A DNA stretch of 64,000 bases from a virus (IMGVR_UViG_2864522212_000004:72255-136254); one strand, 5' to 3'. Numbered from the stretch's first letter, positions 8,101 through 57,923 are shown. The notes: generated from the letters alone by a model not told the origin. Numbers and translations: made by a program.

Positions 8101-8237
8101 CTGCTAAAAGGGGTATGTCGGATTGGTATCAGGTTTTTCTCCTCTGTCCTGATGCTTATCCGACATGCCTTTTCTTCGTATATGCTTGTTATACTGAATA
8201 TGTTCACATAGAAAAAAAATAAGGAGACCAGGAACCC

Positions 8238-8828
8238 ATGGCAGGAGAGCCGACACTCACACTCGCAGGCAATATCACAGCAAACCCCGAGCAGAGGGGA
8301 GATACGGTCACTTTCACCATCGCGCACAATACGCGTCGACGTGACCGTAACGGGCAGACCGTGGATGGGGATGCCGTATTCATGCGATGCGCAGCATTCG
8401 GAGACCTCGCCCAGAACATCATGCGCTCCTGCTATAAGGGCATGCGCGTGGTAGCCACCGGTTACATGAAAACCAACAATTGGACGGACAAGACCACCGG
8501 CCAACAGCGTAGCAATCTTGAAATGATCGTCACCGATTTGGGTGTCAGCCTCCGGTTCGGCGTCACGCAATTTCAGAAGACCAGCGGCCAACAGTCCAAC
8601 GGCAACGGCTACCGGCAGAACAATTACGGCGGCGGATACCAGCAGCCGAACAACGGCTATCAGCAAGGCGCATACAACAACTACCAGCAGCAGGGTTACA
8701 GCCAACAGGCTCCCGCACAGACACCGGCGCAACCTGCAGCACCCTCACAGCCCGCAATGGATCCGTGGGCTACGACCACGCCAGCCAGCACGGATCCGAA
8801 CGGCGACGGCACCGACCCGGAATTCTAA
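8238..8828 (+). CDS. ssb: Single-stranded DNA-binding protein
   Basis: OB fold (LAGNITANPE..KGMRVVATG), Q/N/G-rich linker, acidic DPEF tail. Confidence 0.95.
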   Translation: MAGEPTLTLAGNITANPEQRGDTVTFTIAHNTRRRDRNGQTVDGDAVFMRCAAFGDLAQNIMRSCYKGMRVVATGYMKTNNWTDKTTGQQRSNLEMIVTDLGVSLRFGVTQFQKTSGQQSNGNGYRQNNYGGGYQQPNNGYQQGAYNNYQQQGYSQQAPAQTPAQPAAPSQPAMDPWATTTPASTDPNGDGTDPEF

Positions 8829-8840
8829 ACGGTTCCGACA

Positions 8841-9971
8841 TTGATCAACCTGGAAGATCTGGGCGACAACCTCCGCCTATACAAGGGGGATTGTCGCCGG
8901 CTCATCGCCTCCTTACCGGACAACAGCGTGGATTCCGTCGTTACCGACCCGCCGTATGAGATCGGTTTCATGAACCGCAGCTTCGATTCCACAGGCATCG
9001 CGTTCGACGTGGACCTGTGGAAGGATATCCTGCGCGTCCTGAAGCCGGGCGGGCATGTGGCGGCGTTCGCGGCCAGCCGCACCTATCATCGGCTGGCATG
9101 CGCCATCGAGGATGCGGGCTTCGAAATCCGCGACCAGATCGACTGGGTGTACGCGTCCGGCATGCCACACGGTTCGGATGCGACGCTCATGATCGACCGG
9201 GAACGCCGCGAGGATGTGGAGCCGACGCGATCCGAGACGGCGAAACCGTTCAAAGGCTGGTACAGCCAGCTGAAGCCCGCGCACGAACCCATCTGTCTGG
9301 CCCGCAAGCCGTTGGACGGGAATCTCGCCCACAATCTGCTCGGACATGGGACAGGCGCACTGCATATCGACGCATGCCGCGTCCCATTCCGCAACACGGC
9401 GGACGAGGCGGAGTCGAAGGGCAAGAACCAGCATGGACGGTTCGGCTCCGGGCCGAGAGACAACCATGTATATGGTGCGGACAAAGCGAATCGCACCGAC
9501 TACACGGCTGCCGCCCGTTTCACGCCGAACATGCTGTTCGACCAGTCCACGGCCAAGGAACTCGACCGACAGTCCGGCGTCACCGTCAGTCGAAAAGGCA
9601 AACCACGCGCAAGCACGAAACCCGGTGACGGCTGGGGCATGACCCATACCGGTGCCGAATATGACGATATGGGCGGCGCGAGTCGATTCTACCCGGTTTT
9701 CAGGTATTGTCCGAAAGCCTCATCGGCTGAGCGGCCGAAAGTCGACGGCATCCTCCATCCGACAGTCAAACCGGTCGAACTCATGCGCTGGCTTGTCCGT
9801 CTCGTCACCCCGGCGGATGGTCTCGTGCTGGAGCCGTTCGCCGGCAGCGGCACCACATTGGAAGCATGCCTACTCGAACACATGCAATGCACGGCAAGCG
9901 AACTCGATCCCGACTACATCAAGCTGATCCACGCACGACTCAGCAAACCAATACAAAACGAACTTTTCTAG
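8841..9971 (+). CDS. Orphan N6-adenine/N4-cytosine DNA methyltransferase (beta class)
   Basis: TDPPY motif IV precedes HPTVKP and EPFAGSGTT motif I; no adjacent endonuclease. Confidence 0.92.
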   Translation: MINLEDLGDNLRLYKGDCRRLIASLPDNSVDSVVTDPPYEIGFMNRSFDSTGIAFDVDLWKDILRVLKPGGHVAAFAASRTYHRLACAIEDAGFEIRDQIDWVYASGMPHGSDATLMIDRERREDVEPTRSETAKPFKGWYSQLKPAHEPICLARKPLDGNLAHNLLGHGTGALHIDACRVPFRNTADEAESKGKNQHGRFGSGPRDNHVYGADKANRTDYTAAARFTPNMLFDQSTAKELDRQSGVTVSRKGKPRASTKPGDGWGMTHTGAEYDDMGGASRFYPVFRYCPKASSAERPKVDGILHPTVKPVELMRWLVRLVTPADGLVLEPFAGSGTTLEACLLEHMQCTASELDPDYIKLIHARLSKPIQNELF

Positions 9972-9977
9972 AAAGAA

Positions 9978-10013
9978 GTCAACTACCTCATCCGTAAGGG
10001 CGAGGTAGTTGAC
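9978..10013. repeat. Palindrome built from IS605-type right-end motifs
   Basis: gtcaactacctc-N12-gaggtagttgac. Confidence 0.7.
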
Positions 10014-10064
10014 GCATATAGGGAAAACGCAGTGCAAAAAACAAGCATTGCCCTAAATCGTCTT

Positions 10065-10092
10065 TTAGCCGATAATGTAGATTATGTCAGAT
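10065..10092 (+). other. dif: XerCD dif recombination site
   Basis: ttagccgataa-tgtaga-ttatgtcagat, 11-6-11 layout matching actinobacterial dif. Confidence 0.8.
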
Positions 10093-10296
10093 AAGAATCA
10101 CTCTCAATAAGAAGTCCGCTCTCCCAGCTAGAAAGAACCCATGAACGCAAACCAATGGAAACGAGCCCTATTCAGCCACTCCGAGGGAGAAAATACAAGG
10201 ACAAGCGCCAGCACAGAATATCCTCAGCAGTACAATGCGCGGCAGCGGAAAACGAATTGGCGGAATCGAGGCCATCAAAGTGGGCATGGACGAAAG

Positions 10297-10614: not shown

Positions 10615-10700
10615 AGCCAGACCCTTTCACGCAATTCACTGACTTTTTTCTGATAGTAACAAAAGAAGCTACCGTTTTGCTTCGGTATGTGGGAATACGG

Positions 10701-10743
10701 TTTTGCCCGCCTCTCCCCTGTTTCGGGTCGAAGGCGGGCAAAA
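10701..10743. terminator. Intrinsic terminator (bidirectional-type)
   Basis: ttttgcccgcc..ggcgggcaaaa. Confidence 0.65.
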
Positions 10744-10763
10744 CACGTTTGGTGCGGTGAGAA

Positions 10764-13818: not shown

Positions 13819-14796
13819 CTAACGCAAATTGTCACTATCATGTGTCTGTGGCAAACCTATATGATGACCCACGGCACGCCGACTGCGACAAAGCGAAAAT
13901 CCGACAGCCAATATCCCCGTCACGGTGACGCCCGAAACAAAAGCCGCCTTTTTTACGTCCCCCGTGGCATCTCCGGGCAAGGGGGCCTGATCGGGCATGC
14001 TGTTGCGCTCCCCCGTGACAAGCAGTCGCAGCGTATTGCCCTGCCCCGTACAGGTGAGGAGCGTGACCTCGTCCTTCCCCTTATGGACACGCAACGATTT
14101 CGTGTCGGTAGGAGAGACGATGCGTTTGCTGGTGACTCGATAGGCGAGCGTGTTACCCATGACCTTGATATAGAACGGGTCGCCGTCTTCGAGTTCACCG
14201 AGCCGGGTGAACAGGGTCGCGCCTTTCAGATTCGAATGACCGGTGATTACGGCGCGCGTATTCTTGCCACCGATAGGCAGACTGGTGCCCGCCAGATGGC
14301 CGGCCGCATGTTCGAGCACATCTTGACCAGCTCCGTGGAGGATGGGCATGTCGACGCTGATCTTCGGAATCAGAATCTCACCCATGGCATCCAACCCATT
14401 CACGGACAGTTGACGCCGGTATTCGGCATCGCCCTCGAAATTGCCCTCGGTCTTCCCATCGAACACAGGTTCTCCTATCTGTGGCTGACCGCCTTCATAA
14501 AGACGCTGATTATATGCGATGGCAGATTGGATGACGCTTTGACGGGAGGATTCCGGAAACAGCGCGGCCGTCTGGCTGACGGATCGCGCCTGCTCGTCAA
14601 CGGCGCGGTCGCCGAGCGTCTGCTGGATGCGGGGCATGGCGACAAGCACCATGCCCGCGATCAGGCAGATGACTGCGGCGACCGCGTAGATCCGGGAATG
14701 GCGGACGAGCCGGCGGGCGCGATTGTCGCGCGCCCGCTTGTCGCGGACCGCATCCGCAACGCTCTCCCACACGTCGGTTTCGGCCGCTGCCGTCAC
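13819..14796 (-). CDS. srtC: Class C (pilus) sortase
   Basis: GHLAGTSLPIGG, ITGH, TLLTC..RLLVTGER, N- and C-terminal TM helices. Confidence 0.93.
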   Translation of the reverse strand: MTAAAETDVWESVADAVRDKRARDNRARRLVRHSRIYAVAAVICLIAGMVLVAMPRIQQTLGDRAVDEQARSVSQTAALFPESSRQSVIQSAIAYNQRLYEGGQPQIGEPVFDGKTEGNFEGDAEYRRQLSVNGLDAMGEILIPKISVDMPILHGAGQDVLEHAAGHLAGTSLPIGGKNTRAVITGHSNLKGATLFTRLGELEDGDPFYIKVMGNTLAYRVTSKRIVSPTDTKSLRVHKGKDEVTLLTCTGQGNTLRLLVTGERNSMPDQAPLPGDATGDVKKAAFVSGVTVTGILAVGFSLCRSRRAVGHHIGLPQTHDSDNLR

Positions 14797-17700
14797 TTCG
14801 CGTGCTTTCCGCCGGTGATCGGCATGTGCTTACCGGTGCGCTTGGTTGCGGCCATGCGCATGCGTAGCATCGGCATCATCACGCCGAGCGCGATCAGCAT
14901 GAGCGCGAATCCGGCGTACAGCCAGATGGTCGGCACCTGGGCCTGTCCGCCCGTGAACGGCAGGGTGGTCAGGCTCGGCTCCCACTGGGCGTACACGGTG
15001 GTGCTGCCTTCGGCGGGCAGTGTGACCTTGCCTTCGCCCGGCTGCAGGAAAGTGCTCCCTGCGGGCGGGTTCTTCTCCGTGCTCCATCCGACGAACCGGT
15101 AGCCGGGTCGGGTGATCTTCGGCTCCTTCGCGTCACCGGGGATGGTGACGGTGGAGAAGGCGTCGCCGGTCACGTCATCGACATGGCCGATGCCGCCGTT
15201 CGGGTTGAACTTCAGGCTGGCACCGTTGATTTTCCACTGCGCGTAGAGCACGGAGGTGTTCTTCGGCGTGGACTTGTCGTTGGCCGTCAGCACGTAGTCG
15301 GCTCCCGTGGCGTATGCCTTGCCCTTGCCGTCGGCCTGCGTGTTCCAGCCGGAGAATGTGTAACCAGGACGGTCGAACGGGTTCGTGATGGTCTTCACGG
15401 TCTGGTCGACAACACCGTCCACCGTCTTGGTTTCCGAGCCGACGGTTCCGATGTTGCTGTTGTACACCAGGTGTGCGGGGTCGGCCTTCCATTGGGCCCA
15501 CACGGTGGTGGTTCTCGGTTCAAGCGTGTGTTTGTCGCCCGGTTGCAGGCTTGGGTCGCCGCGTTTGCTGGTGCTCCAGCCGGTGAACGTGTAGCCTGGA
15601 CGGTCGAAGCTGTTCTGGCTGATGGTCACCGTGTCGCCGGTGTTGCCGGTGGTGTCGGGTGTGCTGCCTGTGGTGTTCGGCCAGTCGTTGCGGTACTGGA
15701 TGGTTGCCGGGTTTGCCTTCCAGATGGCGTACAGGTCGTTGCCTGCTGGCTTCATCACGTACTGGCTGACGCCGTTCTTGCCTTCGCCGTATGCGGTGCC
15801 GGAACCGTCCTTGGCGGTGTCCCAACGAACGAACGTGTATCCGTCGCGGGTGAAACCATTGGCGTTTGTGGTCAGTTCGTCACCGGTCTTGCCGGATTGT
15901 GCCGCCGTGTTGCCTCCGGTTGCGCCGTTGCCGTGATAGGTGAGGGTTTGTGCGTTACCGGCCCAGCAGGCATATAGGGTGCTGGAACCACGCAACGTCC
16001 ACTCGCTGTTAGGTTTCACTGCATTGCCCTTGCAGTCGGCCTGAGTGTTCCACGTGACGAACGTGTAGCCGTCGCGGGTGAATCCGTTGTCGCGCACGTT
16101 GATCTTCTCGTCGGTCTTGCCAGTCTGCGGGTCGGTCTTGCCGCCGGTCGCCCCGTTGCCGTCGTAGGTGAGGCTGGCCTGGCCGGGCGTCCACTGCGCG
16201 TACAGGGTGAGCGTGCCGTTGGCCGTCCAACTGGCGCCCGGCGCGTACTTCGTGCCGCTCCCGTCCGGGCTGGTGGCCCAGCCGGCGAACGTGTACCCGT
16301 CGATCGTCCAGCCGTTCTGGCCGATGGTCGGCGTGTCTCCGGTGTGGCCATCCCAGTTGGGGGTGCCCTGGCCTCCCGTGGTCTTGCCCGCGGGCGGGTT
16401 CGGATTGTAGCGGATGTGGGCCTCGTTGGCCGACCATTGGGCGACCATGGTGACGATCCCGTTCGGCTGCGTGGTCAGGTTCGTGACCCACTGGCCGTCG
16501 CCGTACGCCTGCTGGTTGTCGGCGCGCTTCCACCCGGTGAACGTGTATCCGTCGCGGACGAACCCGTTCCGGTGCAGGTTCTGGCCGATGTTGTATTGGA
16601 ACGCCTGGTCCGGGGTGCCGCCGCCGGTCGCCCCGTTGCCGGCGAATCTGACTGTGTACCCGTTGCCGACCCAGTGCGCGTACACGGTCACGTTGCCGGT
16701 GAGCGGCGTGTTGAAATCGTATTTGTTTCCGCCGTTCGGGGCCGTGTACCAGCCGTCGAACCGGTAGCCGGGAATCTTGCCCGTGTCGCCGGCCGCCCAA
16801 CCGGATTTGTCGGCGGCGGCCGTGTTGTAGGGCACGGTCTGCGATGCGGGCGTGCCGGGCGCGTTGCTGCCGGCGGGCGTGTTCACGTTGTACGACAGGG
16901 TGGGGTTGATGGCCCACAATGCGTATACGGTCTTCGCCCTGGCGGGCATGACGATTTCCGTCCTGACGTTCGCGTTCAGCGTGTTCCGGTCCATGGTGTC
17001 GCCGACGGGCACGTCCCTGTCGTTGGCGTCCGTGTTCGCGCTCCAACCGTAGAACGTGCGGTTGGTCTTGCCGATCTGGCTGGAATCCCAGCAGTCGGAG
17101 TCGGCCTTCGCGGTCGCCAATGTGATCCTGGTGCCGGCCGGATAGTAGACCTGGCAGCCGGATACGGCGCCCGTGTCGGCGATCGTCTCCACGCGCACGG
17201 AACCGTCGGATCGGGTGATCGTCCGCTGGCTGGTCCCGTCATCCTGTCTGGCGGTCGTGTCGGTCAGCACCCTGCGGTCGTCCGCGATGGTTCCGGATTC
17301 CGGTTCGGCGCTCTTGTCGGCCGCAAGCCTGACCGTGCCGTCCGTCCCGGATGCGGCGGTTTCGGTCCTGCCCGTCTCGGTGCGCGAGGGCACTTGGCCG
17401 GTTCCGCCGTTCCCGTCGTAGCCGAGCCTGTAGGCCTTGGTGAAGCTCAGATCGTCGAGGATGTTGCCGTTGACGTTGTTGCTGGAGCTTACCGACTTGA
17501 AGATGAAGCGGGTGACCGTCCCGGTGGCGATGTACGTGCCGGTGTAGGTCTCCCACTGCCCGTCATGGTTACGGCTGGAATGGTTCGACTCGGCGTCGTT
17601 GCTCACCTTCGTGGAGATGACCTTGCCGACGTCGCCCGGCTGGTCGCCGTTGCCGTTGACGGTGGTTCGCCTCGCGTCCTGGGCGGATTCCTTGCCGGGT

Positions 17701-20700
17701 TCGCCGATCATGACGCTCATCCCGTCGAGGTGGTTCCTGTCGAGGCTGGCGTGCTTCAACGTCCAGCGGTAGGACACGCCCGGGATGGTGGCGATGTCCT
17801 GGTAGATGGCGGTGCCCGCCTGTCCCGCGACGAGTTCCGCGTACTGGTTGCCGGTCTTGGAGTCCTTCTGCAGTTCGACTCCCTGTGCGATCTGCTGCCA
17901 GTCGGTTCCCTTGGTCTGGGTCGACTTCCATGCGAATTTGGAGGCGTCCCATCCCGGGATTGGCGCCCAGGGGTCCTTATCGATGCCGATGTGCCGCGCG
18001 TATCTGCCGTTGATCGGGTCGACGACGGTCCAGTCGTCCCACGGGTATTTGGTGGAGACACCGGCGATCAGGCCGGCCGGATAGTCGAACGAGCCGTTGA
18101 CCAGTTCGGTCGGCAGACTGTCGGTCTTGCCGGCGATGGTCTTCACCTTGCCATCGGTGGAGGCCTTGATCTGCGACGTGCTCTTCTTGGCCCCGCCGTT
18201 CGCGTCGTAGCTGAGCTTGTAGGCGAGGCGGAAGCTCAGGTCGTCGATGATGCTGTCATTGGCGGAGGCAGTAAGAGTACCGTCCTTGGCGACGCCCCTG
18301 TAGGCGATCATCGTGCGGGATTGTCCGGCTGGGATAATGACCGTGCCCTCGTAGGATTCCCAGTCGTCGGAATGGTCCCACGGTTCGTGGCTGCCTTCCG
18401 TGGCATCCATGGAATCGGAGTGCGTGTAGGCGACGGTTCCCACATCGCCGGTCTTGTCCCCGTACTTCTGGCCGGTCTTGGAGACCGTGGTGCGGGTCAG
18501 CCTGACCGGGGTGAGATGATCCTTGTCGGGGCCGGTGAGCAATGTCACGCCGCCCGCGTTGCCTTTGGAGCGGCCGGAGTGGCGGATACTGAACGTGTAG
18601 CTGGCTCCGGGCGTCGTGTTCACGGTCTGGGCAACGGTACGGCCCGCGTGCACGTCGGCGGCCGTGTTCCCGTCCTTCTCCCGGTGCAGTTCGAAGTTCT
18701 GGTTGCTGCCGATGGCATCGAGATCCTGCCAGGCGAACGTGGCGGCGGTCAGGCCGCCGGCCTTCACGCCCGTCTGTCCGGCCATGGCCTGCGCGTAGGA
18801 GCGGATCGTGCCCGCATTGGGCTTCACATACACCCAGGGCAGGCCCTGCCCCTCCTTCGCGATGCTCCACTTCGGGGTGTCGAACCCGCCGTTCACGGCC
18901 AGCTCATCACCCGCGGCCCTGGAGGCGATGGTCTCCACCTTGGCGCCCGGAGCCTTGAACGCGGCCGGCTGCGTGGAATCCGCCTTCGAACTGGAGGACA
19001 CCTTGCCCTTGTCGTTCTTCTTCAGATCATGCACCGTCAGACCGGAAACGGTTTTGTCAGCCGCGAGTCCGACACTGCCCGTGGTCTTGGACTTGGCGGG
19101 CTGGACGGTGTTCTCCTTGCCGTATTGATTGGATGGCACGCTGCCGGTCGCGTCCGAAGCATTCTTGTCGTAAGAGAGCTTGTACGCCTTGTCGAAGCTT
19201 AGGTCGTCGACACAGTTGCCCTCGGCGGTGAAGTCGAGGCCCTGACCGTTGGAGTCCCTGACGCTCCTGAACGTGAAGCGGGTCGTGGTCGAGGTGGCGA
19301 GGTAGTCGCCGGTATAGGTCTCCCATCTGCCGTCCTGCGCGGTGCCGTGCGTGGTGATCGTGGTGCCGACGCTGCCGGTCTTGTCTGACCCGTTGGATGT
19401 GGTGCGGGTTGCCTGCTGTGCGACGGTCTTGCCGGGTTCGCCGATCATGACCTGCATGCTGTCGTCCTGGTCCGCGTTGCGGGACGCGTGCTTGAGGCTC
19501 CACTTGTACACGACGCCGGGCGTGGTGGCGATGTCCTGGTAGATGTACTTGCCTCGCTTGGCTGCGGCGATCTCGCCCCACACGTTGCCCGCGTTGGTCG
19601 GATACGGGGTGTGGTTGCGGCGCTGCACCTCGACGGTGTCGGCGCCGGCGGTGTCGTCGTTGGATTTCCAGCCGAATTTGCCGGAATTCCAGTTGTCGAG
19701 CTTGCTGTGCAGCGGGTTGCCGATGATGCCGGTCTTCGCGCTGATTATGGCGAGGTAGGTTGTGTCGTGACTGCCGTAGACCCTCTGGTTCTCGTTGATG
19801 ATCTCGTTGCCGCGATAATCGAACGTGCCGTTCACCAGATGGTCCGGCAGATTCGACGTATTATCCGCCACCGTCTTCACGTTTCCGGTAGTCTTCGATT
19901 CGGCGGGCTGGACGGTGTTCTCCTTGCCACGCTGATTCGACGGGACCTTGCCGGTCGCGTCGGATGCGTTCTTGTCATAGGTCAACTTGTAGGAACGGGA
20001 GAATTCGATGTCGTCCACGAGATTGCCGACGTTGTTGCCGGGCAGGGTCTCAACATCTTTGAACCCTTCGAGGCTCTTGAACATGAATACCGTGTTCTTC
20101 TGTCCTTCGGGCACCTGGTAATAGCCTTCGTACGTCTCCCACTGGCTGCCATGGTCTCGGGGATCGGTGTTGGATACCTTTGTGGTGATGGTGGTGGACT
20201 TCCCGCCCACCTTGTCGCCATGGCCGTTAGAGGTGACGCGGGTCATCTCCACAGGCGTCGCGTGGGCCGTGTCGGAGCCCACGAGGACCTGCATCTTGTC
20301 GGCATGGGAGGATTGGCGGCTGGCGTGCTTGAGCCGGATCTTGTACAGTACTCCGCCGTTGCCGGTGGACACGTTCTGGTAGATGCTGGTGTTGTCCTGT
20401 TGGGCGACGATCTCCGCATACGTGTTCTTGGTGTTGCGGTCCTGCTGCAATTCGACCCTTGAACCGTTCTCGGTACTGGACCATGCGAACCTGGAAGAGT
20501 CGAAACCGGGGATCTGCCCGATCTTTCCGTACTTGGAAAGATCGGTGGTGGACATGTTGTACCAAAGCGTGCCGTCATCCGATTTGAGGAACGTGCGCAG
20601 ATCGGCATAGGTTCCCTGCTCGTTCTCCTGAATGTCGGAGAACGAGGGGTAGGAGAAATCGCCATTAGCGAGGGAACCGTACCGGACGTTCTCGTCCGCG

Positions 20701-21632
20701 ACGGTCTTCACGCCGCCCGTGGCACTGGTTTTGGCGGGTTTGACGGTGGCGGTGTCGTTCGGGGTCTGGCCGGTCGCCTCGTCGGAGTTCCTGTCGTAGT
20801 CGAGTTTGTACGCCTGGGTGAACACGATGTTGTCGAGCAGGTTGCCGCTGGTCGTGTTCACGCCGGATACCTGCCTGAATGTGAACCGGGTGACGGACTG
20901 GCCTGCGGGGATCGTGTAGTAGCCGACGTAGTGGCTGAAGTCGTCCTTGCTGGACTGGTTGCCGAACGGGTTGGTCGAGTGCGTGGCGATGGTGGTGGAC
21001 TTCTCGCCGATCTTGTCGCCGTACTTGTTCGAGCTGGTGCGGGTCATTTCGACGGGCCGCTCGTGGCCGGGCGCGCCTACCATGACCTGCATCTGGTCAA
21101 GGTGGATGCTGTAGCGGCTCGCGTGGTCGAGCTCGATCCTGTAGAGCGTGCCGGGCGTGGTGGCGATGTCCTGGTAGATCGCGGTGCCTTTCTGGCTTGC
21201 GCACAGTTCGCCCATCTGGGTGGTTTCGCCGGTGGCCTTCTGGAGTTCGACGGCGTTCGCGCGCTGTTCGGACATGGCGCCCTGTGTCTGGGTGCTGGAC
21301 CAGCCGAATCTGGTCGTGTCCAGTCCGCCGGGGATGTCGGACCATTTGGCGAGGTCGTCTCCCTGTCCGTTGCTGATCCACTGGCTGCGGTTGCGGTCGA
21401 TGCCGGTGAAGTAGTGTTGCAGGCTCTTCATGCTCGGGTATTCGAAGTCGCCGTTGACGAGCTCCCTTGGATACGTCGTGGCGGCCGATGCCGTCAGGCT
21501 CGTGATGGTCTTGCCGATATCGGGCATGCGGATCTCGTCCGCGTTCGCGGTGCCCGCCATCAGGAGCCCGCTGCCCATCAGGGTGCCCGCCGACACGATG
21601 CCGGCGACCATCCGTTTCAGCCATGTGCGCAT
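14793..21632 (-). CDS. Very large pilus-associated adhesin: five lectin-like repeats plus InlB-B/Listeria-Bacteroides repeats, LPFTG anchor
   Basis: Five repeats of NGxF..IYQDIAT.PG..HASR, about nine YDGNG..GYTFxGW..LYAQW repeats, sorting signal. Confidence 0.88.
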   Translation of the reverse strand: MRTWLKRMVAGIVSAGTLMGSGLLMAGTANADEIRMPDIGKTITSLTASAATTYPRELVNGDFEYPSMKSLQHYFTGIDRNRSQWISNGQGDDLAKWSDIPGGLDTTRFGWSSTQTQGAMSEQRANAVELQKATGETTQMGELCASQKGTAIYQDIATTPGTLYRIELDHASRYSIHLDQMQVMVGAPGHERPVEMTRTSSNKYGDKIGEKSTTIATHSTNPFGNQSSKDDFSHYVGYYTIPAGQSVTRFTFRQVSGVNTTSGNLLDNIVFTQAYKLDYDRNSDEATGQTPNDTATVKPAKTSATGGVKTVADENVRYGSLANGDFSYPSFSDIQENEQGTYADLRTFLKSDDGTLWYNMSTTDLSKYGKIGQIPGFDSSRFAWSSTENGSRVELQQDRNTKNTYAEIVAQQDNTSIYQNVSTGNGGVLYKIRLKHASRQSSHADKMQVLVGSDTAHATPVEMTRVTSNGHGDKVGGKSTTITTKVSNTDPRDHGSQWETYEGYYQVPEGQKNTVFMFKSLEGFKDVETLPGNNVGNLVDDIEFSRSYKLTYDKNASDATGKVPSNQRGKENTVQPAESKTTGNVKTVADNTSNLPDHLVNGTFDYRGNEIINENQRVYGSHDTTYLAIISAKTGIIGNPLHSKLDNWNSGKFGWKSNDDTAGADTVEVQRRNHTPYPTNAGNVWGEIAAAKRGKYIYQDIATTPGVVYKWSLKHASRNADQDDSMQVMIGEPGKTVAQQATRTTSNGSDKTGSVGTTITTHGTAQDGRWETYTGDYLATSTTTRFTFRSVRDSNGQGLDFTAEGNCVDDLSFDKAYKLSYDKNASDATGSVPSNQYGKENTVQPAKSKTTGSVGLAADKTVSGLTVHDLKKNDKGKVSSSSKADSTQPAAFKAPGAKVETIASRAAGDELAVNGGFDTPKWSIAKEGQGLPWVYVKPNAGTIRSYAQAMAGQTGVKAGGLTAATFAWQDLDAIGSNQNFELHREKDGNTAADVHAGRTVAQTVNTTPGASYTFSIRHSGRSKGNAGGVTLLTGPDKDHLTPVRLTRTTVSKTGQKYGDKTGDVGTVAYTHSDSMDATEGSHEPWDHSDDWESYEGTVIIPAGQSRTMIAYRGVAKDGTLTASANDSIIDDLSFRLAYKLSYDANGGAKKSTSQIKASTDGKVKTIAGKTDSLPTELVNGSFDYPAGLIAGVSTKYPWDDWTVVDPINGRYARHIGIDKDPWAPIPGWDASKFAWKSTQTKGTDWQQIAQGVELQKDSKTGNQYAELVAGQAGTAIYQDIATIPGVSYRWTLKHASLDRNHLDGMSVMIGEPGKESAQDARRTTVNGNGDQPGDVGKVISTKVSNDAESNHSSRNHDGQWETYTGTYIATGTVTRFIFKSVSSSNNVNGNILDDLSFTKAYRLGYDGNGGTGQVPSRTETGRTETAASGTDGTVRLAADKSAEPESGTIADDRRVLTDTTARQDDGTSQRTITRSDGSVRVETIADTGAVSGCQVYYPAGTRITLATAKADSDCWDSSQIGKTNRTFYGWSANTDANDRDVPVGDTMDRNTLNANVRTEIVMPARAKTVYALWAINPTLSYNVNTPAGSNAPGTPASQTVPYNTAAADKSGWAAGDTGKIPGYRFDGWYTAPNGGNKYDFNTPLTGNVTVYAHWVGNGYTVRFAGNGATGGGTPDQAFQYNIGQNLHRNGFVRDGYTFTGWKRADNQQAYGDGQWVTNLTTQPNGIVTMVAQWSANEAHIRYNPNPPAGKTTGGQGTPNWDGHTGDTPTIGQNGWTIDGYTFAGWATSPDGSGTKYAPGASWTANGTLTLYAQWTPGQASLTYDGNGATGGKTDPQTGKTDEKINVRDNGFTRDGYTFVTWNTQADCKGNAVKPNSEWTLRGSSTLYACWAGNAQTLTYHGNGATGGNTAAQSGKTGDELTTNANGFTRDGYTFVRWDTAKDGSGTAYGEGKNGVSQYVMKPAGNDLYAIWKANPATIQYRNDWPNTTGSTPDTTGNTGDTVTISQNSFDRPGYTFTGWSTSKRGDPSLQPGDKHTLEPRTTTVWAQWKADPAHLVYNSNIGTVGSETKTVDGVVDQTVKTITNPFDRPGYTFSGWNTQADGKGKAYATGADYVLTANDKSTPKNTSVLYAQWKINGASLKFNPNGGIGHVDDVTGDAFSTVTIPGDAKEPKITRPGYRFVGWSTEKNPPAGSTFLQPGEGKVTLPAEGSTTVYAQWEPSLTTLPFTGGQAQVPTIWLYAGFALMLIALGVMMPMLRMRMAATKRTGKHMPITGGKHAK

Positions 21633-21806
21633 TATCGGTTTTCCTTCCCCATCCCTCGCAATGTCTTCCGACGGATGAGCCAAGACCCGTACGAACCCCT
21701 CGTGGCGGGCCGGATAAAAAAGAATCATTCGGTGATGAGAGGCCGATAGGGGACGCGACCCCGCCCCCTATCGGCGGAACCCCGGCCTGGAGGGCCGGGA
21801 CATGTG

Positions 21807-30526: not shown

Positions 30527-30623
30527 TATCTCATGGGAGATATTAGGGGTCGATTGGAATAGTGTCAATCTCTATGGAGATACGGCGTGTTTTATAGCGT
30601 GAAAAATGTTCTCTCAAGAGATA
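30527..30623. promoter_or_regulatory. Three palindromic operators TCTC-N4-GAGATA
   Basis: tatctcatgggagata (30527), aatctctatggagata (30567), gttctctcaagagata (30608). Confidence 0.8.
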
Positions 30624-30633
30624 GAATGACAAC

Positions 30634-31736: not shown

Positions 31737-31749
31737 GGAGAGATAAATC

Positions 31750-40010: not shown

Positions 40011-40301
40011 TCAGATGACGGGATTCGCGGGAACTCTCGTTGGATTGCCTGCTGCGACATACTGCCCATAGTCCGGGTCGTCTTTGCAGAGTGTCCAGTC
40101 TCCGCTGCCGTCATCGTGGTAGGTCATGTGTGATTTCACGCCTTGTTCGATGAGACATCCATGGGAGCAGGTGTTGAGACGGTTTTGTTCGGGTAGTTTC
40201 ATATAGCCGTCGAGGCTGTTGCGGTCTGCTTCGGGACGGAGCACGAAGTCTCCTATTCCGTTTTGGATGTCTTGGATGCTTGTGTTGGCTGCGTGGCTCA
40301 T
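40011..40301 (-). CDS. Hypothetical protein
   Basis: First gene after a conserved promoter motif. Confidence 0.7.
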   Translation of the reverse strand: MSHAANTSIQDIQNGIGDFVLRPEADRNSLDGYMKLPEQNRLNTCSHGCLIEQGVKSHMTYHDDGSGDWTLCKDDPDYGQYVAAGNPTRVPANPVI

Positions 40302-40459
40302 TGGTGGGTCTTCCTTCAATTCTCTATGTGGATATATTCAGTATAACATGCATATATCGTAGAAGATAATCCCAATGAAAGATATTCACGGTTTAAGGCA
40401 GGCGCCTGGTGCCGAGAAAGCCGAACCGACGTCCGCAGATTCTCCAGCCTCTATCCACT

Positions 40460-40753
40460 TTAGGCATTCTCGAAAGCCTCCTGATCGAACTTGGTATCCA
40501 CGTGGACGGTCCATCCGCTGCTGATCACCTCATTGCAATAGTGCTTGCGGGATGCGACCACCTGGGATTGCAGGTACCTGTTGTCCCTCAGCTGTTCCGC
40601 AGTGGGGTTGCCGAACAGTGGCGTCGGTATTCTTTTCGACCCGGTCTCCGTGACGAAGTACAGGTTGAGCACCGTGTCGTCTTTTACGCGGCGCATAAAG
40701 TCGCCGAGTTTTTCGGTCTTGTCTTCAGACAATGGATCTCCTTGCTGTTCCAT
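40460..40753 (-). CDS. Hypothetical protein
   Basis: ATG directly after a conserved promoter motif. Confidence 0.7.
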   Translation of the reverse strand: MEQQGDPLSEDKTEKLGDFMRRVKDDTVLNLYFVTETGSKRIPTPLFGNPTAEQLRDNRYLQSQVVASRKHYCNEVISSGWTVHVDTKFDQEAFENA

Positions 40754-40800
40754 ACTTTATGTAGATATATTCAGTTTAACAGGCATAACAGAATTGTTTC

Positions 40801-43794: not shown

Positions 43795-43804
43795 GTTTCA
43801 ACTC

Positions 43805-44467: not shown

Positions 44468-44689
44468 GCTGTTTTCTCCTCTGTTCACGTTTTCCGCCGC
44501 CAAGGTGGAGGCGTGGGACGCGCTTTTTTTATGTGGCCACATTCAGTGTAGCAGAGGCGCATTTTTTTGTGGAACCAGCTCTCCCCATCAACAGGAAAAC
44601 AACACAATGCGGGAATGATCAGGCAGAGAAACGCTTCCGCATTCATCTGCCAAACCATTCCCGCATTTCCACAGTTCTTTGCGAAAATT

Positions 44690-49237: not shown

Positions 49238-51853
49238 CTACTTGTCGCCGGGGCGATAACCGTCGTCGAAGTCTTTCACGCTCACGATGAACGCCGGCTG
49301 GATCTGTTCCATGTTTCTGGTTCTTACAGCGGCATGGTATTTGGGGAGGTTCGTCACCGCTCCTCCAGTCCACCCATCCAATCCCTCATTGTCGGTCAGA
49401 CGTGCCGCGGTCAGCGTGGCTATGCGCGGAATCGACGTGTTGTAGCTGATGAACGTCGTGTACCCCAGGAACGAATCCAACAACGTGTCGGACAACTGGG
49501 TCGGGTATTGGGTGGCGAACACGAGAATCAATCCGAACGAACGCCCCTGCTCCCTCAGATTCTTCAACACGTCGTCCGACCCGTTCGCCAGCAGGCTCAG
49601 CTCGTCGCAGACGAGCATCGTGTGTTTGCCAAGCGTTAACCAGTCCTTGCAGTGTGCGAACACCGTGTTCCAGAACCGGTACATGAGCCACGAGCCCAGA
49701 ATCTTGTCCATGAGTTCGGGAAGCGAGTGGCCATTGTGCGGGGCGAGCACGATGTGATAGTCGCCCGGGTGATCCAATATCCACTTCCATGTGACGGTGC
49801 TGCGTCGCGGTGTGAACATGTGTTCGATGGCGAGGAACTGGTTGACCTTGTTCACCGAGGCGTTGGTACGCTGCAGTATTTCACGATCGCTTCGCGCCGC
49901 CTGCCCCTTCTGATCCGGTCGTCCGTACAGTTGTTCTGCGGCACGCGCGGCCAACGTCATGTCTATTCCGAGAGGATCGTCCTTCAACTCCAATGCGAGA
50001 GCCCTGCATACCTGTCCAAGCGCTCTGGCTGATCCGGTTTGACCATCCGACCCACACAATGCGACCACGGCCCAGCCGATAGGTGACTGCTGTTGCCTGA
50101 GTTGACCGGCCCCGGGATACTGTTGCTCGAGTTGTCTGCATCTTCTTAGGATGTCCCCCGGCTTGTGTTGGTCGTATCGGCTTGCGGCCACGCCGATGGT
50201 CATGGATTGGGTGATGATGTTTTGGGAGTCGTTCTGAATGTCGCCGGCATTGAATGCGTATCTCATGGTTTTGGCGACGCTTTCCGCCGTCTCCTGGGCG
50301 TTCCTTCCCTCCTGCATTCCGAGCAAATCGAGACCGATGCTGGAAGGATCAGTGAGATATATGACACGTGGATGGGAGTCAATCCCCTGCGTTTGCCGAT
50401 ACCGGTCCAGCACTTCCACTCCGGTGTCGTCCTTCATCCAGAAGTGGATGAGTCGTGAATCCGTTCCCCACACGTCACGGCTGGTATCGTTGCGATGGCT
50501 GATGGCCCATTGGCTGATGCCGTGGGTCAGAACGGTTTTTCCTGATCCGGCTTCACCGCTGATTGCGATTCCGCCATAGAGCTGTGTCGGATCCAAGTAT
50601 CCGGGACGTCCGGAATCGTCCAATCCGATCAGGACGCCTCCATGGGACAATGGTTCGGGCACCGGGTGAAGGTCCTGTTTCACCGCCGTGGATTTCTGCA
50701 CCGGCATGAACAGTGTGGTCGTGGTCATTGGGCTGAAGACCAAAGTGGTGCGTTGCGGGCCATATCCCGTCGCATACACTCGTTTGTCTTTCATGCCGAG
50801 TTTTGTTTCGGTGTCACTGAGATTCGCCTTGCGTTTGCGGCGAAGCCACCAGTATCGGCGTGGGCGTTGGAGAATATCATCCCATAGAGTGTTCCTCCAC
50901 CATCTGATTCCAGCTGCAACGGTGAAGGCAAGAGGAATGATCCACAACCATGACGGTATCGGCAACAGCATCAAAGAGCAGTACGCCAACAGTCCAAGAC
51001 ATGCGAATTTGTAGTGCGGCGGTACTCGGAAGTACATTCGAGTGCTGTTGTCGTCGTTCAGCATGGCTTTCGCGTTTGCGGAGAGTAGTCCACTCAAAAC
51101 CCAAGGCACCAGCAGCATCGCCGCTACCGTTCCCGCCAGCCAGAAGAATGTGGCAAGACGAATCGGAGTGATGACGGACAATACCATCGTCAACAGGGTG
51201 ACAGCCAAGGTCACGATGAGTCCGCCCAACTTTGGGTAGCTGGGATGACTGCTCATGTTGGAGAGCAGCGGGAACATGGCCTGTCCAGCCCGTTGTGCGA
51301 GTTCTGCGTTCCGGCGGCTGTCGGCGCATGCTGCGGTGACTCGCGCGCAGAGCGTGTGTGCTGCGACAAATTCGTTGCCGTCCTCGACGGTGGAATGCTC
51401 GTCGGCAACCCAATCTCGAATTCGGGCCTGTTCGAAATATCCTTGCCTGCGGAGCGTTACGCTGACATAACTGTCTGCCGGCATCAATGCTTCGACGCTT
51501 TTCCGAATGCCGGCGGAATCGGTGCGCATCTTCTCCATCGTCGCCTTTGAATTCAAGCGGGCCCGCCATGGCACAAGAGAGTGAGCTGATCTGCTGATTC
51601 CTTCCGGCAGTTCGGGTTCGCCGTTCCCTGGCAGTGGGCTGATGGAAAAGCCGGCGAGATCACCCGCCTTGCGTATGCCTTCGCCATCGCCATGCACATA
51701 TTCACGGACCGGCTCGTTTCCCACTCTGACGAGCAGCAGCGTGCAGTCCTCCAGATTTCCTGGGACATCATCCGCGATGGATCTCAACTGGTCGCCATCG
51801 AGTTGGCTGATGCTGCGAGTCACCTCGTACCATGCTTTTTCTTTTTCGCTCAT
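49238..51853 (-). CDS. Type IV coupling protein (VirD4/TraD-like ATPase)
   Basis: TM segments, Walker A GEAGSGKT, Walker B LVCDE, REQGRSFG..ATQYPTQL. Confidence 0.85.
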   Translation of the reverse strand: MSEKEKAWYEVTRSISQLDGDQLRSIADDVPGNLEDCTLLLVRVGNEPVREYVHGDGEGIRKAGDLAGFSISPLPGNGEPELPEGISRSAHSLVPWRARLNSKATMEKMRTDSAGIRKSVEALMPADSYVSVTLRRQGYFEQARIRDWVADEHSTVEDGNEFVAAHTLCARVTAACADSRRNAELAQRAGQAMFPLLSNMSSHPSYPKLGGLIVTLAVTLLTMVLSVITPIRLATFFWLAGTVAAMLLVPWVLSGLLSANAKAMLNDDNSTRMYFRVPPHYKFACLGLLAYCSLMLLPIPSWLWIIPLAFTVAAGIRWWRNTLWDDILQRPRRYWWLRRKRKANLSDTETKLGMKDKRVYATGYGPQRTTLVFSPMTTTTLFMPVQKSTAVKQDLHPVPEPLSHGGVLIGLDDSGRPGYLDPTQLYGGIAISGEAGSGKTVLTHGISQWAISHRNDTSRDVWGTDSRLIHFWMKDDTGVEVLDRYRQTQGIDSHPRVIYLTDPSSIGLDLLGMQEGRNAQETAESVAKTMRYAFNAGDIQNDSQNIITQSMTIGVAASRYDQHKPGDILRRCRQLEQQYPGAGQLRQQQSPIGWAVVALCGSDGQTGSARALGQVCRALALELKDDPLGIDMTLAARAAEQLYGRPDQKGQAARSDREILQRTNASVNKVNQFLAIEHMFTPRRSTVTWKWILDHPGDYHIVLAPHNGHSLPELMDKILGSWLMYRFWNTVFAHCKDWLTLGKHTMLVCDELSLLANGSDDVLKNLREQGRSFGLILVFATQYPTQLSDTLLDSFLGYTTFISYNTSIPRIATLTAARLTDNEGLDGWTGGAVTNLPKYHAAVRTRNMEQIQPAFIVSVKDFDDGYRPGDK

Positions 51854-51869
51854 ATCCGATGCCCTCCTG

Positions 51870-55230: not shown

Positions 55231-55304
55231 TTCGTTGTTTGCTCGGATACAGTCGTTGAAGACGGTTCACTCGAACGGTCCTGCCTTGACGAAGGGAGTT
55301 AACG

Positions 55305-55973: not shown

Positions 55974-55996
55974 CGGCCGGCATCTCGGGATGCTTG

Positions 55997-56038
55997 AACG
56001 GTTGGATACGAACATGGATCCGTATCCAACCGTTTTTT
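55997..56038. terminator. Terminator between convergent genes
   Basis: aacggttggatacg..cgtatccaaccgtttttt. Confidence 0.8.
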
Positions 56039-56039
56039 A

Positions 56040-56873
56040 TTATTCCGCGATGAGCTGCACACGGTTCTCCGCCTTTGGCGGCATCCCGTATGGTCTGATC
56101 ACGAGGCCCGCCCTCGTCAACGAGAATACCCAGATTTTCTGAATCTGGTTGAGCTTTGTGAGGCTGACGGTGAGGTGCTTGGTGGACACCGTCTCCGTGC
56201 TCGTACCGGGGACGATCTTGTATAGATTATTTCGACTGATATACAGTTCCTTCTGCTCCGGACAGTAGAGCGTCGCGAACACCAGCAGATCCAAGGACAG
56301 GCTTCCGCCACTGGTTCCGACGACGGCGGAAAGAGGAATCTCCTTCGGTTCGCGCGACATCAATCGGACGTATTCCCAAGTGAAGGTAATGGTTTTTTCG
56401 TTCCAGCTTTCGCCTTGGACGATGTTCGTCTCTTCGATCGGTTTTATTTCTTTGCCGTCCCTTGAAGTGAACGTGATGTCCTGATAGCCGATGATGCTGG
56501 TGACCGTATTCTGTCGGCCGCAGCCTCCCGTCAGCATGCCCATTCTGCGGGCCACTTGCCGTACGTCCTTGCCGATGGTCAGCGTCCTGGTCTTGCCGTT
56601 GTAATCCGCGTTTTGTGTGTTCACGAATGTCGTGAACAGGATGCTTAGGAGTCGAGGCGTCCTGCCGAATGCGAGCGGATGTTCGTTGCCGCGCACGTAT
56701 GGGATGAGCGGGTATGCCTCTTCCGCGACGTAAAGAATTCCGAATCCTGTGGCTATGCCGTTGTCCATCCCGACGCTTCTCAGCCTGTGTATTTTGTTGA
56801 GCATCCCGACTCTTCCCCTGTTTTTGCTTTTTCGGTTGATACCAACAATTTTACGGTTTTTCATACGCGACAT
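56040..56873 (-). CDS. repA: Plasmid replication initiator, RepA_C (IncW-like) family
   Basis: LAFGRTPRLL, LTIG..RRMGMLTGG, SLSLDL motifs; start may be 56804. Confidence 0.7.
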   Translation of the reverse strand: MSRMKNRKIVGINRKSKNRGRVGMLNKIHRLRSVGMDNGIATGFGILYVAEEAYPLIPYVRGNEHPLAFGRTPRLLSILFTTFVNTQNADYNGKTRTLTIGKDVRQVARRMGMLTGGCGRQNTVTSIIGYQDITFTSRDGKEIKPIEETNIVQGESWNEKTITFTWEYVRLMSREPKEIPLSAVVGTSGGSLSLDLLVFATLYCPEQKELYISRNNLYKIVPGTSTETVSTKHLTVSLTKLNQIQKIWVFSLTRAGLVIRPYGMPPKAENRVQLIAE

Positions 56874-57259
56874 GCCAACATACCCAGTAAGGCAGATGCT
56901 TGTTTTACACCGTCGAACCGAAGACCTACTGGCCTTTCTTCCTGGGACTGAGGTTCAGACACTGCAGCCGGTAATGAATTCTGCAGGACACCAGTTTCGG
57001 GTCGAGTTTCCCATACGCATTCCGGGCCATGTCGATATACAGTCGACACCCCGGATCCGACAAAGCGAAATCACCGACACTCCAACCCAATGGTTCCTCC
57101 TCGTGAGACTTATGCCTCGCCATCAGAAAAAACAACCTCCGATTCACACCGATTCGCATCCGGATTCGACGGCCGACGCGCCGTCCAAGTTGGTCAAAAA
57201 AAGGCGGGCATGCTGGAGGCGTTGGGGTCGTCACTCGGCATGCCCGCCGGTCGTGGTTC

Positions 57260-57658
57260 TTATTTGTTCCACTGCGGGCCGTTCGGGAATGAGATGGGCG
57301 AGCCGCCCCACATCTGCCTGTCTGAATTGATCATCGCTTCGGTGTATCCGCCGTCCATGAGACTCTGGGTCCTGAGGTCGAGGTCGGGCCTATAGTGCTT
57401 GGTGGCTGGCGGTATCATGCCCATCATGTCCCCGCTGTTGAATCGGAGGACTTCCTTGTCGGCTTCCTCGCCGGCGATCAGCACGTCGATGTTGTTGAGC
57501 AATGTCATCGCGCTTTTCGTGTACGGGATGTCCCCTCTTCCGATGCTTCCTGTGAAGGTGATTTTGCATTCCCGGAGAAATTTGATGTGTTCCAAGAGGT
57601 TTGGTGGTGTCGCTTCGACGAGGTGCGATCCGATGTTCGGTTCTGCCGTGAAGGTCAT
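57260..57658 (-). CDS. Hypothetical protein
   Basis: RBS aggag. Confidence 0.7.
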   Translation of the reverse strand: MTFTAEPNIGSHLVEATPPNLLEHIKFLRECKITFTGSIGRGDIPYTKSAMTLLNNIDVLIAGEEADKEVLRFNSGDMMGMIPPATKHYRPDLDLRTQSLMDGGYTEAMINSDRQMWGGSPISFPNGPQWNK

Positions 57659-57923
57659 GTTGGCTCCTGTTTTTTTTGATATCAACCGATTACGTTTTGT
57701 CGTTTTGGGGGAACCGCAATCGCCGTCTTCGGCATCGCTTGTGGTGGCCCTGAGGTAATTGCGTTGGGGGTTCCGCTGTTTTCTCGGTGTGTATCTTTTG
57801 TTTTTTTATGTGGACGCGTTCAGCATATCGCGACACTCCGAAGATTCACCCCCTCCCCTTAATTCTCTTTTACTTGTTATACTGAATACGTCCACATAAA
57901 TCGAAAGAAAACAACGACAACCA

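What the first reader, a model, noticed from the sequence alone, without database searches (positions are those of the whole stretch)
8187..57898. Second conserved 24-bp promoter/operator (TGTTATACTGAA..CCACATA) before ssb, parA and phage-like early operons
Seen in the sequence, six copies all oriented toward the downstream gene: 8187+ TGTTATACTGAATATGTTCACATA (ssb-MTase); 40348- TGTTATACTGAATATATCCACATA; 40781- TGTTAAACTGAATATATCTACATA; 44553- TGCTACACTGAATGTGGCCACATA (parA); 57830- CGATATGCTGAACGCGTCCACATA; 57875+ TGTTATACTGAATACGTCCACATA (dnaB operon). The last two form a divergent pair. Each has a -10 hexamer (TG-extended in five copies) plus conserved bases past the presumed start site, as expected for a shared repressor site. 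Inference: an establishment or zygotic-induction regulon, distinct from the CGGT regulon.
Basis: partly seen in the sequence, partly recalled or inferred. Interest (0 to 1): 0.8.

Follow-up and report, generated by a model that had tools for sequence, protein, structure and literature searches.

The report
Published Bifidobacterium megaplasmid promoter motif
The six repeats are real, but they are copies of the promoter motif published in 2024 for the Bifidobacterium conjugative megaplasmid pMP7017: a host-type promoter joined to a fixed box at the transcription start, and what reads that box is still unknown.

Summary
The window is the last 64 kb of a 136-kb record of a B. longum megaplasmid, 99% identical to NZ_CP065398 and 84% to pMP7017. 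That record carries 19 copies; complete relatives carry 23 and 24.

This is the 34-bp motif of Dineen et al. 2024 (PMC10832533): 19 copies in pMP7017, about 56 genes, called a likely transcription-factor site. This scan has reached the same verdict before on other DNA.

Anatomy:
- An extended -10 element, TGnTATACT.
- An optional -35.
- An invariant CTGA.
- Four or five variable bases around the predicted start.
- An invariant one-directional box, TCCACATA.
- An A-rich leader with a uniform ribosome-binding site.

Best reading: a plasmid-private class of host sigma-A promoters whose start-site box is read by an unidentified DNA-binding factor.

Tested and not supported: a palindromic operator, a CRISPR spacer target, a plasmid sigma factor, RNA polymerase or DnaA, RepA or RepB iterons, and the ImmR-like repressor.

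The box resembles a weak DnaA box, but its conservation pattern fits DnaA poorly.

The "establishment or zygotic induction" label is only partly supported. The regulon also holds secYEG, DivIVA, a tRNA array, cas genes and a transfer ATPase operon. Published RNA-seq shows six of the 19 motif genes highly transcribed in mid-log cultures carrying the plasmid.

The parts
8187..8210 (+). Motif copy, 1 mismatch to the consensus. Promoter of ssb (8238-8828) and the N6/N4 DNA methyltransferase (8841-9971).
40325..40348 (-). Motif copy, 1 mismatch. Promoter of a 96-aa unknown ORF (about 40011-40301), followed by a long run of unknown genes on the minus strand.
40758..40781 (-). Motif copy, 3 mismatches. 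Promoter of a 90-aa unknown ORF (about 40460-40732). A terminator-like hairpin lies just upstream at 40827-40813.
44530..44553 (-). Motif copy, 4 mismatches (-10 hexamer TACACT). Promoter of parA (43805 to about 44467) and the downstream genes.
57807..57830 (-). Weakest copy, 6 mismatches, CG instead of TG and -10 hexamer TATGCT. It has a leader of about 135 nt before a 136-aa unknown ORF (57260-57670). It is the divergent partner of the next copy.
57875..57898 (+). Motif copy, 1 mismatch. Promoter of the 222-aa unknown ORF (57924-58592) that heads the operon containing dnaB (60252-61592).
62444..62477 (+). Site between genes of the dnaB operon, with no -10 element. It has a perfect TTATCCACA, a second TCCACA, then GTCCACATA plus an A-run and a ribosome-binding site. 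It is identical in pMP7017 and B. longum p1. This shows the start-site box can occur without the promoter half.

Best explanation
The six sites belong to the published pMP7017-family promoter motif. Each is a host sigma-A promoter of the extended -10 type (TGnTATACT). A -35 hexamer is optional and is absent from all six copies in this window.

An invariant CTGA follows the -10. Four or five variable bases then span the predicted start, which is nearly always a purine at motif position 16, seven bases after the hexamer. Next comes an invariant one-directional box, TCCACATA, at about +2 to +9. An A-rich leader and a uniform ribosome-binding site follow.

About 19-24 such units per plasmid head roughly a quarter of the genes, so those genes are expressed as one class.

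The most likely role of the box is as the binding site of one sequence-specific DNA-binding factor. Because the site is asymmetric, the factor probably reads it as a single asymmetric site. Sitting on the start site, the factor would dampen or tune all these promoters together.

Shown here: the repeat, its orientation, its promoter anatomy and its restriction to this plasmid family. Taken from print: transcription in vivo. Inferred: the start position, the existence and sign of the factor, and its identity.
For: - Copies and chance levels.
- Identity with the published motif, its 19 copies, 56 genes and six highly expressed genes. In pMP7017 the only genes of the cas block transcribed above threshold are casE, which sits two short genes downstream of a motif copy, and an internal hypothetical gene whose position fits the DUF4192 gene directly behind another copy (the old and new locus tags were not cross-checked).
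- Sigma-A reading: A at hexamer position 2 in 18 of 19 copies and T at position 6 in all 19, and G of the TG extension in all 19. TTG sits 16-18 bp upstream in 11 of 24 pMP7017 copies and 6 of 23 p1 copies, against a 4.8% background.
- Selection on the core: its consensus is the same in pMP7017 and the B. longum plasmids, while both flanks have lineage-specific consensus. Among 51 distinct cores from plasmids and infant-gut contigs, CTGA and CACATA hardly vary.
- The motif is private to the family: 6 of 72,556 plasmid records, no phage record, and one stray copy in the species-representative genomes.
- The box also occurs without the -10 half, before a ribosome-binding site between genes. That fits a separately read element.
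- A repB promoter fragment was 1.6-fold less active when the megaplasmid was present, and RepB did not bind it. By the paper's coordinates that promoter should overlap a divergent motif copy.
Against: - No binding protein was identified.
- The three XRE-type regulators, the WhiB-like protein and the CopG-like protein annotated on the plasmids have no demonstrated link to the box. The ImmR-like gene's own promoter carries different palindromes.
- The promoters are active in cells carrying the plasmid, so any repression is partial.
- A conserved block just after the start could act in the RNA instead.
- Flanks that are uniform within each plasmid show that copying or gene conversion contributes to the similarity.
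- The start site is predicted, not mapped.
Confidence: 0.5

Rival explanations
1. The box acts in the RNA. All these messages would begin with the same roughly 9 nt (GUCCACAUA) followed by an A-rich leader. This common 5' end sets stability, processing or translation rather than binding a DNA-binding protein.
For: The box lies after the predicted start and is followed by a uniform leader and ribosome-binding site. The same box plus A-run plus ribosome-binding site occurs between genes inside the dnaB operon with no -10 element. Other promoter-less instances precede start codons in pMP7017.
Against: No stable hairpin is possible: the arms are 5 nt with a 2-nt loop, and the left arm varies without compensation. 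No Rfam family matches the window. No RNA-binding factor or complementary RNA was found. The -10 to box spacing is fixed in nearly every copy (one pMP7017 copy is a base shorter), which fits a DNA-level composite site better.
Confidence: 0.17
2. No dedicated factor exists. One strong promoter-plus-leader cassette has been copied in front of many operons and kept uniform by recombination. The bases after the start are kept because they favour promoter escape or simply because the copies are recent.
For: There are five exact 24-mers on this record. Flanks and leaders are uniform within a plasmid but differ between pMP7017 and the B. longum plasmids. A lone copy heads an unrelated gene in B. ramosum, with no homologue of the megaplasmid genes in the 8 kb fetched around it.
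Against: The core is the same in lineages whose flanks have diverged. At the ssb promoter the flanks differ throughout between pMP7017 and the B. longum plasmids, while 20 of 24 core positions are kept. Within the core, positions 13-16 drift while 17-24 do not, which is selection rather than recency. RNA polymerase is not known to read +4 to +9 (general knowledge).
Confidence: 0.15
3. The box is a weak DnaA box. Host DnaA binds at the start site and couples about 20 plasmid operons to the host's replication-initiation state.
For: Bifidobacterium uses TTATCCACA: 166 copies in 28 dnaA regions, often continued by TA. Motif positions 14-22 match it at 7 of 9 positions. They score 7.06 bits against 16.3 for a perfect box, using a matrix built from 499 boxes in the Bifidobacterium dnaA regions. 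This is the only positive register on either strand. None of 433 chromosomal TGnTAnnnT sites reaches that score in register, and the random 9-mer rate is 4e-4. A DnaA box is asymmetric, like this box. A perfect box sits beside the promoter-less site at 62444. DnaA is an established transcription factor (PMC8203912, PMC11317965).
Against: The score lies at the 7th percentile of the boxes in the dnaA regions. Natural variants freely lose the T at box position 2, which is T in 471 of 499 of those boxes, dropping to 1.6 bits or below. They keep the TA after the box, which DnaA does not need. G is preferred where A would give a better box. The upstream 9-mer does not score as a second box (-0.38 bits), so there is no double box. 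Canonical boxes are not enriched on the plasmids. The plasmids encode no DnaA domain.
Confidence: 0.12
4. The 24-bp block is the promoter of a plasmid-encoded sigma factor or RNA polymerase, or the target of an RNA-guided repressor (Cas3-less Cascade, or a TnpB-derived protein).
For: The conserved block is contiguous. The plasmids carry type I-E cas genes with no cas3 annotated, and many TnpB genes.
Against: No sigma factor or polymerase is annotated on two complete plasmids. The four large unknown proteins of the window gave no Pfam polymerase match. None of the CRISPR spacers matches the motif better than 16 of 32 positions. No guide-like partial copy lies outside promoter or leader contexts. 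The -10 and -35 pattern fits the host sigma-A.
Confidence: 0.04

Closest known systems
34-bp motif of the 'presumed pMP7017-specific regulon' (Dineen, Bottacini, O'Connell-Motherway, van Sinderen 2024, Microb Biotechnol 17:e14405, PMC10832533)
   Same: It has the same core sequence, the same position over the -10 element and before start codons, the same plasmid family, a similar copy number and comparable downstream genes (ssb and methylase, parA, the dnaB block).
   Different: Nothing essential differs. This is a B. longum member of the family with lineage-specific flanks and far fewer -35 hexamers (1 of 19 against 11 of 24). The paper does not dissect the box, its asymmetry, its promoter-less copies or its DnaA-box likeness.
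Dispersed asymmetric repressor sites of plasmid-prophage P1 (C1 operators) and of mycobacteriophage L5 (gp71 'stoperators'); recalled from memory, not read here
   Same: Many copies of a one-directional site of about 13-17 bp are spread over a large mobile replicon. They lie at promoters and sometimes inside operons, are co-oriented with transcription, and control replication-type genes such as a dnaB analogue and ssb.
   Different: No repressor has been identified here. The site is welded to the -10 at a fixed distance. The promoters are active in cells carrying the plasmid. There is no sequence similarity.
Global regulons of conjugative plasmids (IncP-1 KorA/KorB operators); from memory
   Same: One or two short operators are repeated at many plasmid promoters, giving coordinated and partly repressed expression, with two separate operator classes on one plasmid.
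   Different: Kor operators are palindromes bound by known dimers. This box is asymmetric and its reader is unknown.
DnaA box and DnaA as a transcription factor (PMC8203912; PMC11317965)
   Same: It is an asymmetric 9-mer ending in TCCACA near a transcription start.
   Different: It matches only 7 of 9 positions. The conservation pattern differs from true boxes, there is no paired box, and binding is untested.
Promoter propagation or 'mobile promoters' within genomes (Matus-Garcia et al. 2012, from memory), and the Galliscardovia promoter cassette noted earlier in this scan (e1-2642710)
   Same: One promoter-leader cassette sits in front of many unrelated genes of one replicon.
   Different: Here a core inside the cassette is held constant across diverged lineages, which points to a function beyond copying. 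The Galliscardovia case was not examined here.

Membership tests
pMP7017 34-bp promoter motif (PMC10832533) | Sequence matches the published consensus core (YTATACTGAATATGTCCACATA plus an A-run) | tested here: met
   Four window copies have 1-3 mismatches to the 24-mer and two have 4-6. The published consensus was read.
pMP7017 34-bp promoter motif (PMC10832533) | Lies on a pMP7017-family megaplasmid | tested here: met
   The window is 99% identical to four B. longum megaplasmids, and a 1.7-kb stretch (the dnaB region) is 84% identical to pMP7017. Those records carry 23 and 24 copies.
pMP7017 34-bp promoter motif (PMC10832533) | Overlaps a -10 element within about 60 bp upstream of a translation start | tested here: met
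   Four of six copies lie 22-37 nt from the start. The parA copy lies about 64 nt away and the 57830 copy about 135 nt.
pMP7017 34-bp promoter motif (PMC10832533) | Absent from bifidobacterial chromosomes | tested here: inconclusive
   One copy (22 of 24) lies before an unrelated gene on a 98.7-kb B. ramosum contig. There were no other hits among the species-representative genomes.
pMP7017 34-bp promoter motif (PMC10832533) | Drives transcription in vivo | not testable with these tools
   Only the published RNA-seq for pMP7017 is available.
Sigma-A extended -10 promoter | TG one base upstream of a TAnnnT hexamer, with -35 dispensable | tested here: met
   G of the TG is present in all 19 copies. 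A is at hexamer position 2 in 18 of 19 and T at position 6 in all 19. TTG at the -35 position is enriched in relatives but rare here. The simple -35/-10 scan finds none of the six.
Sigma-A extended -10 promoter | Transcription start 6-8 nt after the hexamer | not testable with these tools
   A purine at motif position 16 in all 19 copies fits this. There are no 5'-end data.
Dimeric repressor operator (palindrome) | Two arms of dyad symmetry, both conserved | tested here: not met
   The best dyad is TATGT-CC-ACATA. The left arm varies in about half of the 51 distinct cores with no change in the right arm.
DnaA box | 9-mer fitting TTATCCACA, with T at positions 2 and 4 and CACA at the end | tested here: inconclusive
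   It matches 7 of 9 positions and scores 7.06 of 16.3 bits. It is rare in register among control promoter-like sites (0 of 433). Variants lose position 2, and the flanking TA is conserved instead.
Leading-region single-strand promoters or zygotic induction (Frpo type) | A long imperfect hairpin that rebuilds -35 and -10 in single-stranded DNA, clustered next to oriT | tested here: not met
   Copies are spread over the whole plasmid. Only three pairs on this record are inverted neighbours, and in the closest pair (18 bp apart) the loop would hold the -35 region. oriT was not located.
CRISPR-guided self-regulation | A spacer or guide complementary to the motif | tested here: not met
   No spacer in the four arrays of pMP7017 and p1 (27 and 16 repeats) matches better than 16 of 32 positions.

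The most novel reading that the evidence does not exclude
The start-site box is a deliberately weak DnaA box. Host DnaA would then gate about 20 operons, a quarter of the megaplasmid, so that plasmid replication, partition, anti-restriction and accessory genes follow the host's replication-initiation state. Alternatively, the box is read by a new plasmid-encoded protein that binds it as a single asymmetric site and acts as the plasmid's master regulator.
Probability: 0.12. Interest if true: 0.6.

Novelty: already known. Interest (0 to 1): 0.2.

Why it matters
The motif marks the main private promoter class of a megaplasmid family. The published survey reports pMP7017 homologues in about a tenth of the gut microbiome samples it mined, mostly from infants and mothers (abstract of PMC10832533). 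Knowing what reads the start-site box would explain how a quarter of the plasmid is switched, and it would give a portable expression cassette for bifidobacteria. As a sequence observation it is already in print, so this report only refines the anatomy and narrows the candidate readers.

Tried and rejected
- **CRISPR or Cascade target.** Spacers from the four arrays do not match the motif.
- **RNA-guided (TnpB-type) target.** No guide-like partial copy exists. Every 12-mer partial match is another promoter or leader context, or lies inside a gene.
- **Plasmid-encoded sigma factor, RNA polymerase or DnaA.** None is annotated on two complete plasmids. Pfam Bac_DnaA was sought on this record and Bac_DnaA_C on this record and both complete plasmids, with no match. 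The four large unknown proteins give no Pfam polymerase hit.
- **RepA or RepB binding.** The published repeats are unrelated sequences.
- **ImmR-like repressor (30634-31218).** Its own promoter has ATCTC..GAGAT-type palindromes and not the motif.
- **Palindromic operator or RNA hairpin.** The left arm varies without compensation.
- **Leaderless Met-Ser-Thr mini-ORF (ATG TCC ACA TAA/TAG).** The ATG is replaced by ACG, AAG, ATA or GCG in many copies. It also sits only 5 nt after the -10 hexamer.
- **First genes downstream of the motif as hidden regulators.** There were no Pfam, PHROG or ESM Atlas leads.
- **Looking for diverged sister elements.**
  - The plasmid DnaB query returned only chromosomal dnaB genes.
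  - The coupling-protein query returned only distant Micrococcales megaplasmids.
  - The B. ramosum locus shares no genes with the plasmids (the tblastx run returned nothing).
Full report
**Observation.** The 24-mer consensus, allowing up to 3 mismatches, hits the window four times. The relaxed pattern ACTGAA-N7-ACATA hits six times. Shuffles give 0.00 and 0.38 matches respectively. Each points at a ribosome-binding site and a start codon. The downstream genes are:
- ssb and an N6/N4 DNA methyltransferase;
- two small unknown ORFs;
- parA;
- a 136-aa unknown ORF;
- a 222-aa unknown ORF that heads the operon holding dnaB.

**Where the window comes from.** The window is the last 64 kb of a 136,254-bp record. 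IMG/VR classes that record as a provirus, about 63% complete. It is in fact a Bifidobacterium longum conjugative megaplasmid. It is 99% identical to NZ_CP065398 and three other B. longum plasmids, and its dnaB region is 84% identical to pMP7017 of B. breve. The whole record has 19 copies with up to 6 mismatches, five of them exact, against none in 20 shuffles. NZ_CP065398 has 23 copies and pMP7017 has 24.

**Already in print.** Dineen et al. [quoted passage not shown] They found 13 further copies. The motif is predicted to drive 56 genes, about 24% of coding capacity. The authors call it a likely transcription-factor binding site, present in pMP7017 homologues and absent from bifidobacterial chromosomes. 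No later paper names the binding factor. Earlier follow-ups in this scan reached the same verdict on other DNA and on another window of this genome.

**Anatomy.** Information content is high from motif position 1 to 24 and falls off on both sides.
- Positions 1-9 are an extended -10, TGnTATACT. A at hexamer position 2 is present in 18 of 19 copies. T at hexamer position 6 and the G of the TG are present in all 19.
- TTG at the -35 position, 16-18 bp upstream, occurs in 11 of 24 pMP7017 copies and 6 of 23 p1 copies, but in only 1 of 19 on this record. Background is 4.8%.
- The simple -35/-10 scan accordingly finds none of the six window copies.
- Positions 8-11 (CTGA) are invariant or nearly so.
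- Positions 13-16 are the least conserved. Position 16, seven bases after the hexamer, is a purine in all 19 copies, which fits a start there.
- Positions 17-24 (TCCACATA) are nearly invariant.

Among 51 distinct cores collected from plasmids and infant-gut viral-database contigs, the spacer drifts widely while CTGA and CACATA stay. The flanks have a different consensus in pMP7017 and in the B. longum plasmids, while the core consensus is identical. So copying or gene conversion homogenises whole cassettes within a plasmid, while selection holds the core across lineages.

**The box on its own.** GTCCACATA followed by an A-run and a ribosome-binding site also occurs without the -10 half. The clearest case lies between two genes of the dnaB operon at window 62444-62477, beside a perfect TTATCCACA. 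That stretch is identical in pMP7017 and p1, although the whole neighbourhood is 94% conserved, so the footprint is not specific. Elsewhere CCACATA occurs at chance frequency.

**What reads the box.**
- No sigma factor, RNA polymerase or DnaA is annotated on two complete plasmids, and no DnaA domain was found by search.
- CRISPR spacers do not match the motif.
- RepA repeats and RepB iterons are different sequences.
- The ImmR-like, ImmA-like and zinc-ribbon module at 30634-33063 has its own palindromes in its promoter.
- The dyad TATGT-CC-ACATA is not kept, because the left arm varies freely.
- The first genes behind the motif copies give no family or atlas lead.
- One weak hint of a plasmid factor exists. 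A repB promoter fragment was 1.6-fold less active with the megaplasmid present, and RepB does not bind it. By the paper's coordinates that promoter should overlap a divergent motif copy.

**The DnaA-box idea.** I reached this before seeing that an earlier agent of the scan had noted it (note, look-up).
- In favour:
  - Bifidobacterium dnaA regions carry TTATCCACA 166 times in 28 loci, often followed by TA.
  - Motif positions 14-22 match it at 7 of 9 positions and score 7.06 bits, against 16.3 for a perfect box. This is the only positive register.
  - None of 433 chromosomal TGnTAnnnT sites reaches that score in register.
- Against:
  - The score sits at the 7th percentile of the boxes in the dnaA regions.
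  - Variants lose the T at box position 2 while keeping the TA beyond the box.
  - G is preferred where A would improve the box.
  - The upstream 9-mer is not a second box, although E. coli DnaA prefers pairs spaced 2-3 bp apart (PMC11317965).
  - Canonical boxes are not enriched on the plasmids.

I put this reading at about 12%.

**The establishment reading.**
- In the window the downstream genes (ssb, methylase, parA, dnaB) fit an early or establishment set.
- The motif is disjoint from the CGGT-N17-CGGT sites, which number 21 against 3.3 expected. Six of them have an AT-rich core.
- On complete relatives, motif promoters also head secY with a WhiB-like gene, DivIVA with secE and secG, cas genes, the tRNA array, an RNA-ligase block and a transfer ATPase operon.
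- Published RNA-seq shows six motif genes among the highly expressed genes in mid-log cultures carrying the plasmid. Within the otherwise silent cas block, expression occurs near motif copies.
- The class therefore looks like the plasmid's general private promoter type, at most partly repressed. Induction after transfer remains untested.

**Verdict.** The finding is already known, and interest is low. The open question is what reads TCCACATA, and the experiments listed under next steps would settle it.

Noticed in passing
window 30634-33063 (+), promoter region 30540-30633: An ImmR-like XRE repressor (194 aa), an ImmA/IrrE-type M78 metallopeptidase (172 aa) and a zinc-ribbon protein (437 aa) sit in a row. 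ATCTC..GAGAT-type palindromes lie in front of them. This is a likely separate switch of the ICEBs1 or phage type.
   Followed up: partly
window 62444-62477 (+): Between two genes of the dnaB operon lie a perfect Bifidobacterium-type DnaA box (TTATCCACA), a second TCCACA and GTCCACATA. The stretch is identical in pMP7017 and B. longum p1, and it is the only such cluster on the plasmids.
   Followed up: partly
window 4951, 23811, 28058, 49107, 55204, 56833: CGGT-N17-CGGT sites with an AT-rich core. The pattern gives 21 hits in all against 3.3 in shuffles, and none is near a motif copy.
   Followed up: partly
window 60252-61592 (+): The plasmid's DnaB helicase is 57-62% identical to chromosomal DnaB across Bifidobacterium species, so it looks like a captured host-lineage gene.
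   Followed up: no
window 49238-51853 (-): This 871-aa ATPase matches, at about 29% identity, proteins annotated as type IV coupling proteins on Arthrobacter, Pseudarthrobacter and Curtobacterium megaplasmids. Those are the nearest relatives outside the six Bifidobacterium plasmids.
   Followed up: no
L003:1501-1524 (B. ramosum DSM 100688, contig NZ_WBSM01000013): A single 22-of-24 copy of the motif sits about 26 nt before an unrelated gene of roughly 310 aa. None of the surrounding ORFs has a homologue on the megaplasmids.
   Followed up: partly
NZ_CP065398 121677-121700 (-); pMP7017 120542-120565 (+): One motif copy faces the plasmid's tRNA array with no ORF behind it. By the coordinates in the 2021 replication paper, it overlaps the -35 region of the divergent repB promoter.
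   Followed up: partly
whole record (G000): IMG/VR lists this plasmid fragment as a provirus. Dozens of infant-gut 'viral' contigs carrying the motif are probably fragments of the same plasmid family.
   Followed up: no
window 14793-21728 (-) and 33793-35127 (+): A 2311-aa surface protein with eight Listeria-Bacteroides repeats, and a TnpB (IS605 OrfB) gene. Complete relatives carry more than ten TnpB copies.
   Followed up: no
NZ_CP065398 98180-107962: The plasmid carries type I-E cas genes with no cas3 annotated, two CRISPR arrays, and its own secY, secE, secG, DivIVA and WhiB-like genes. Several of these sit behind motif promoters.
   Followed up: no
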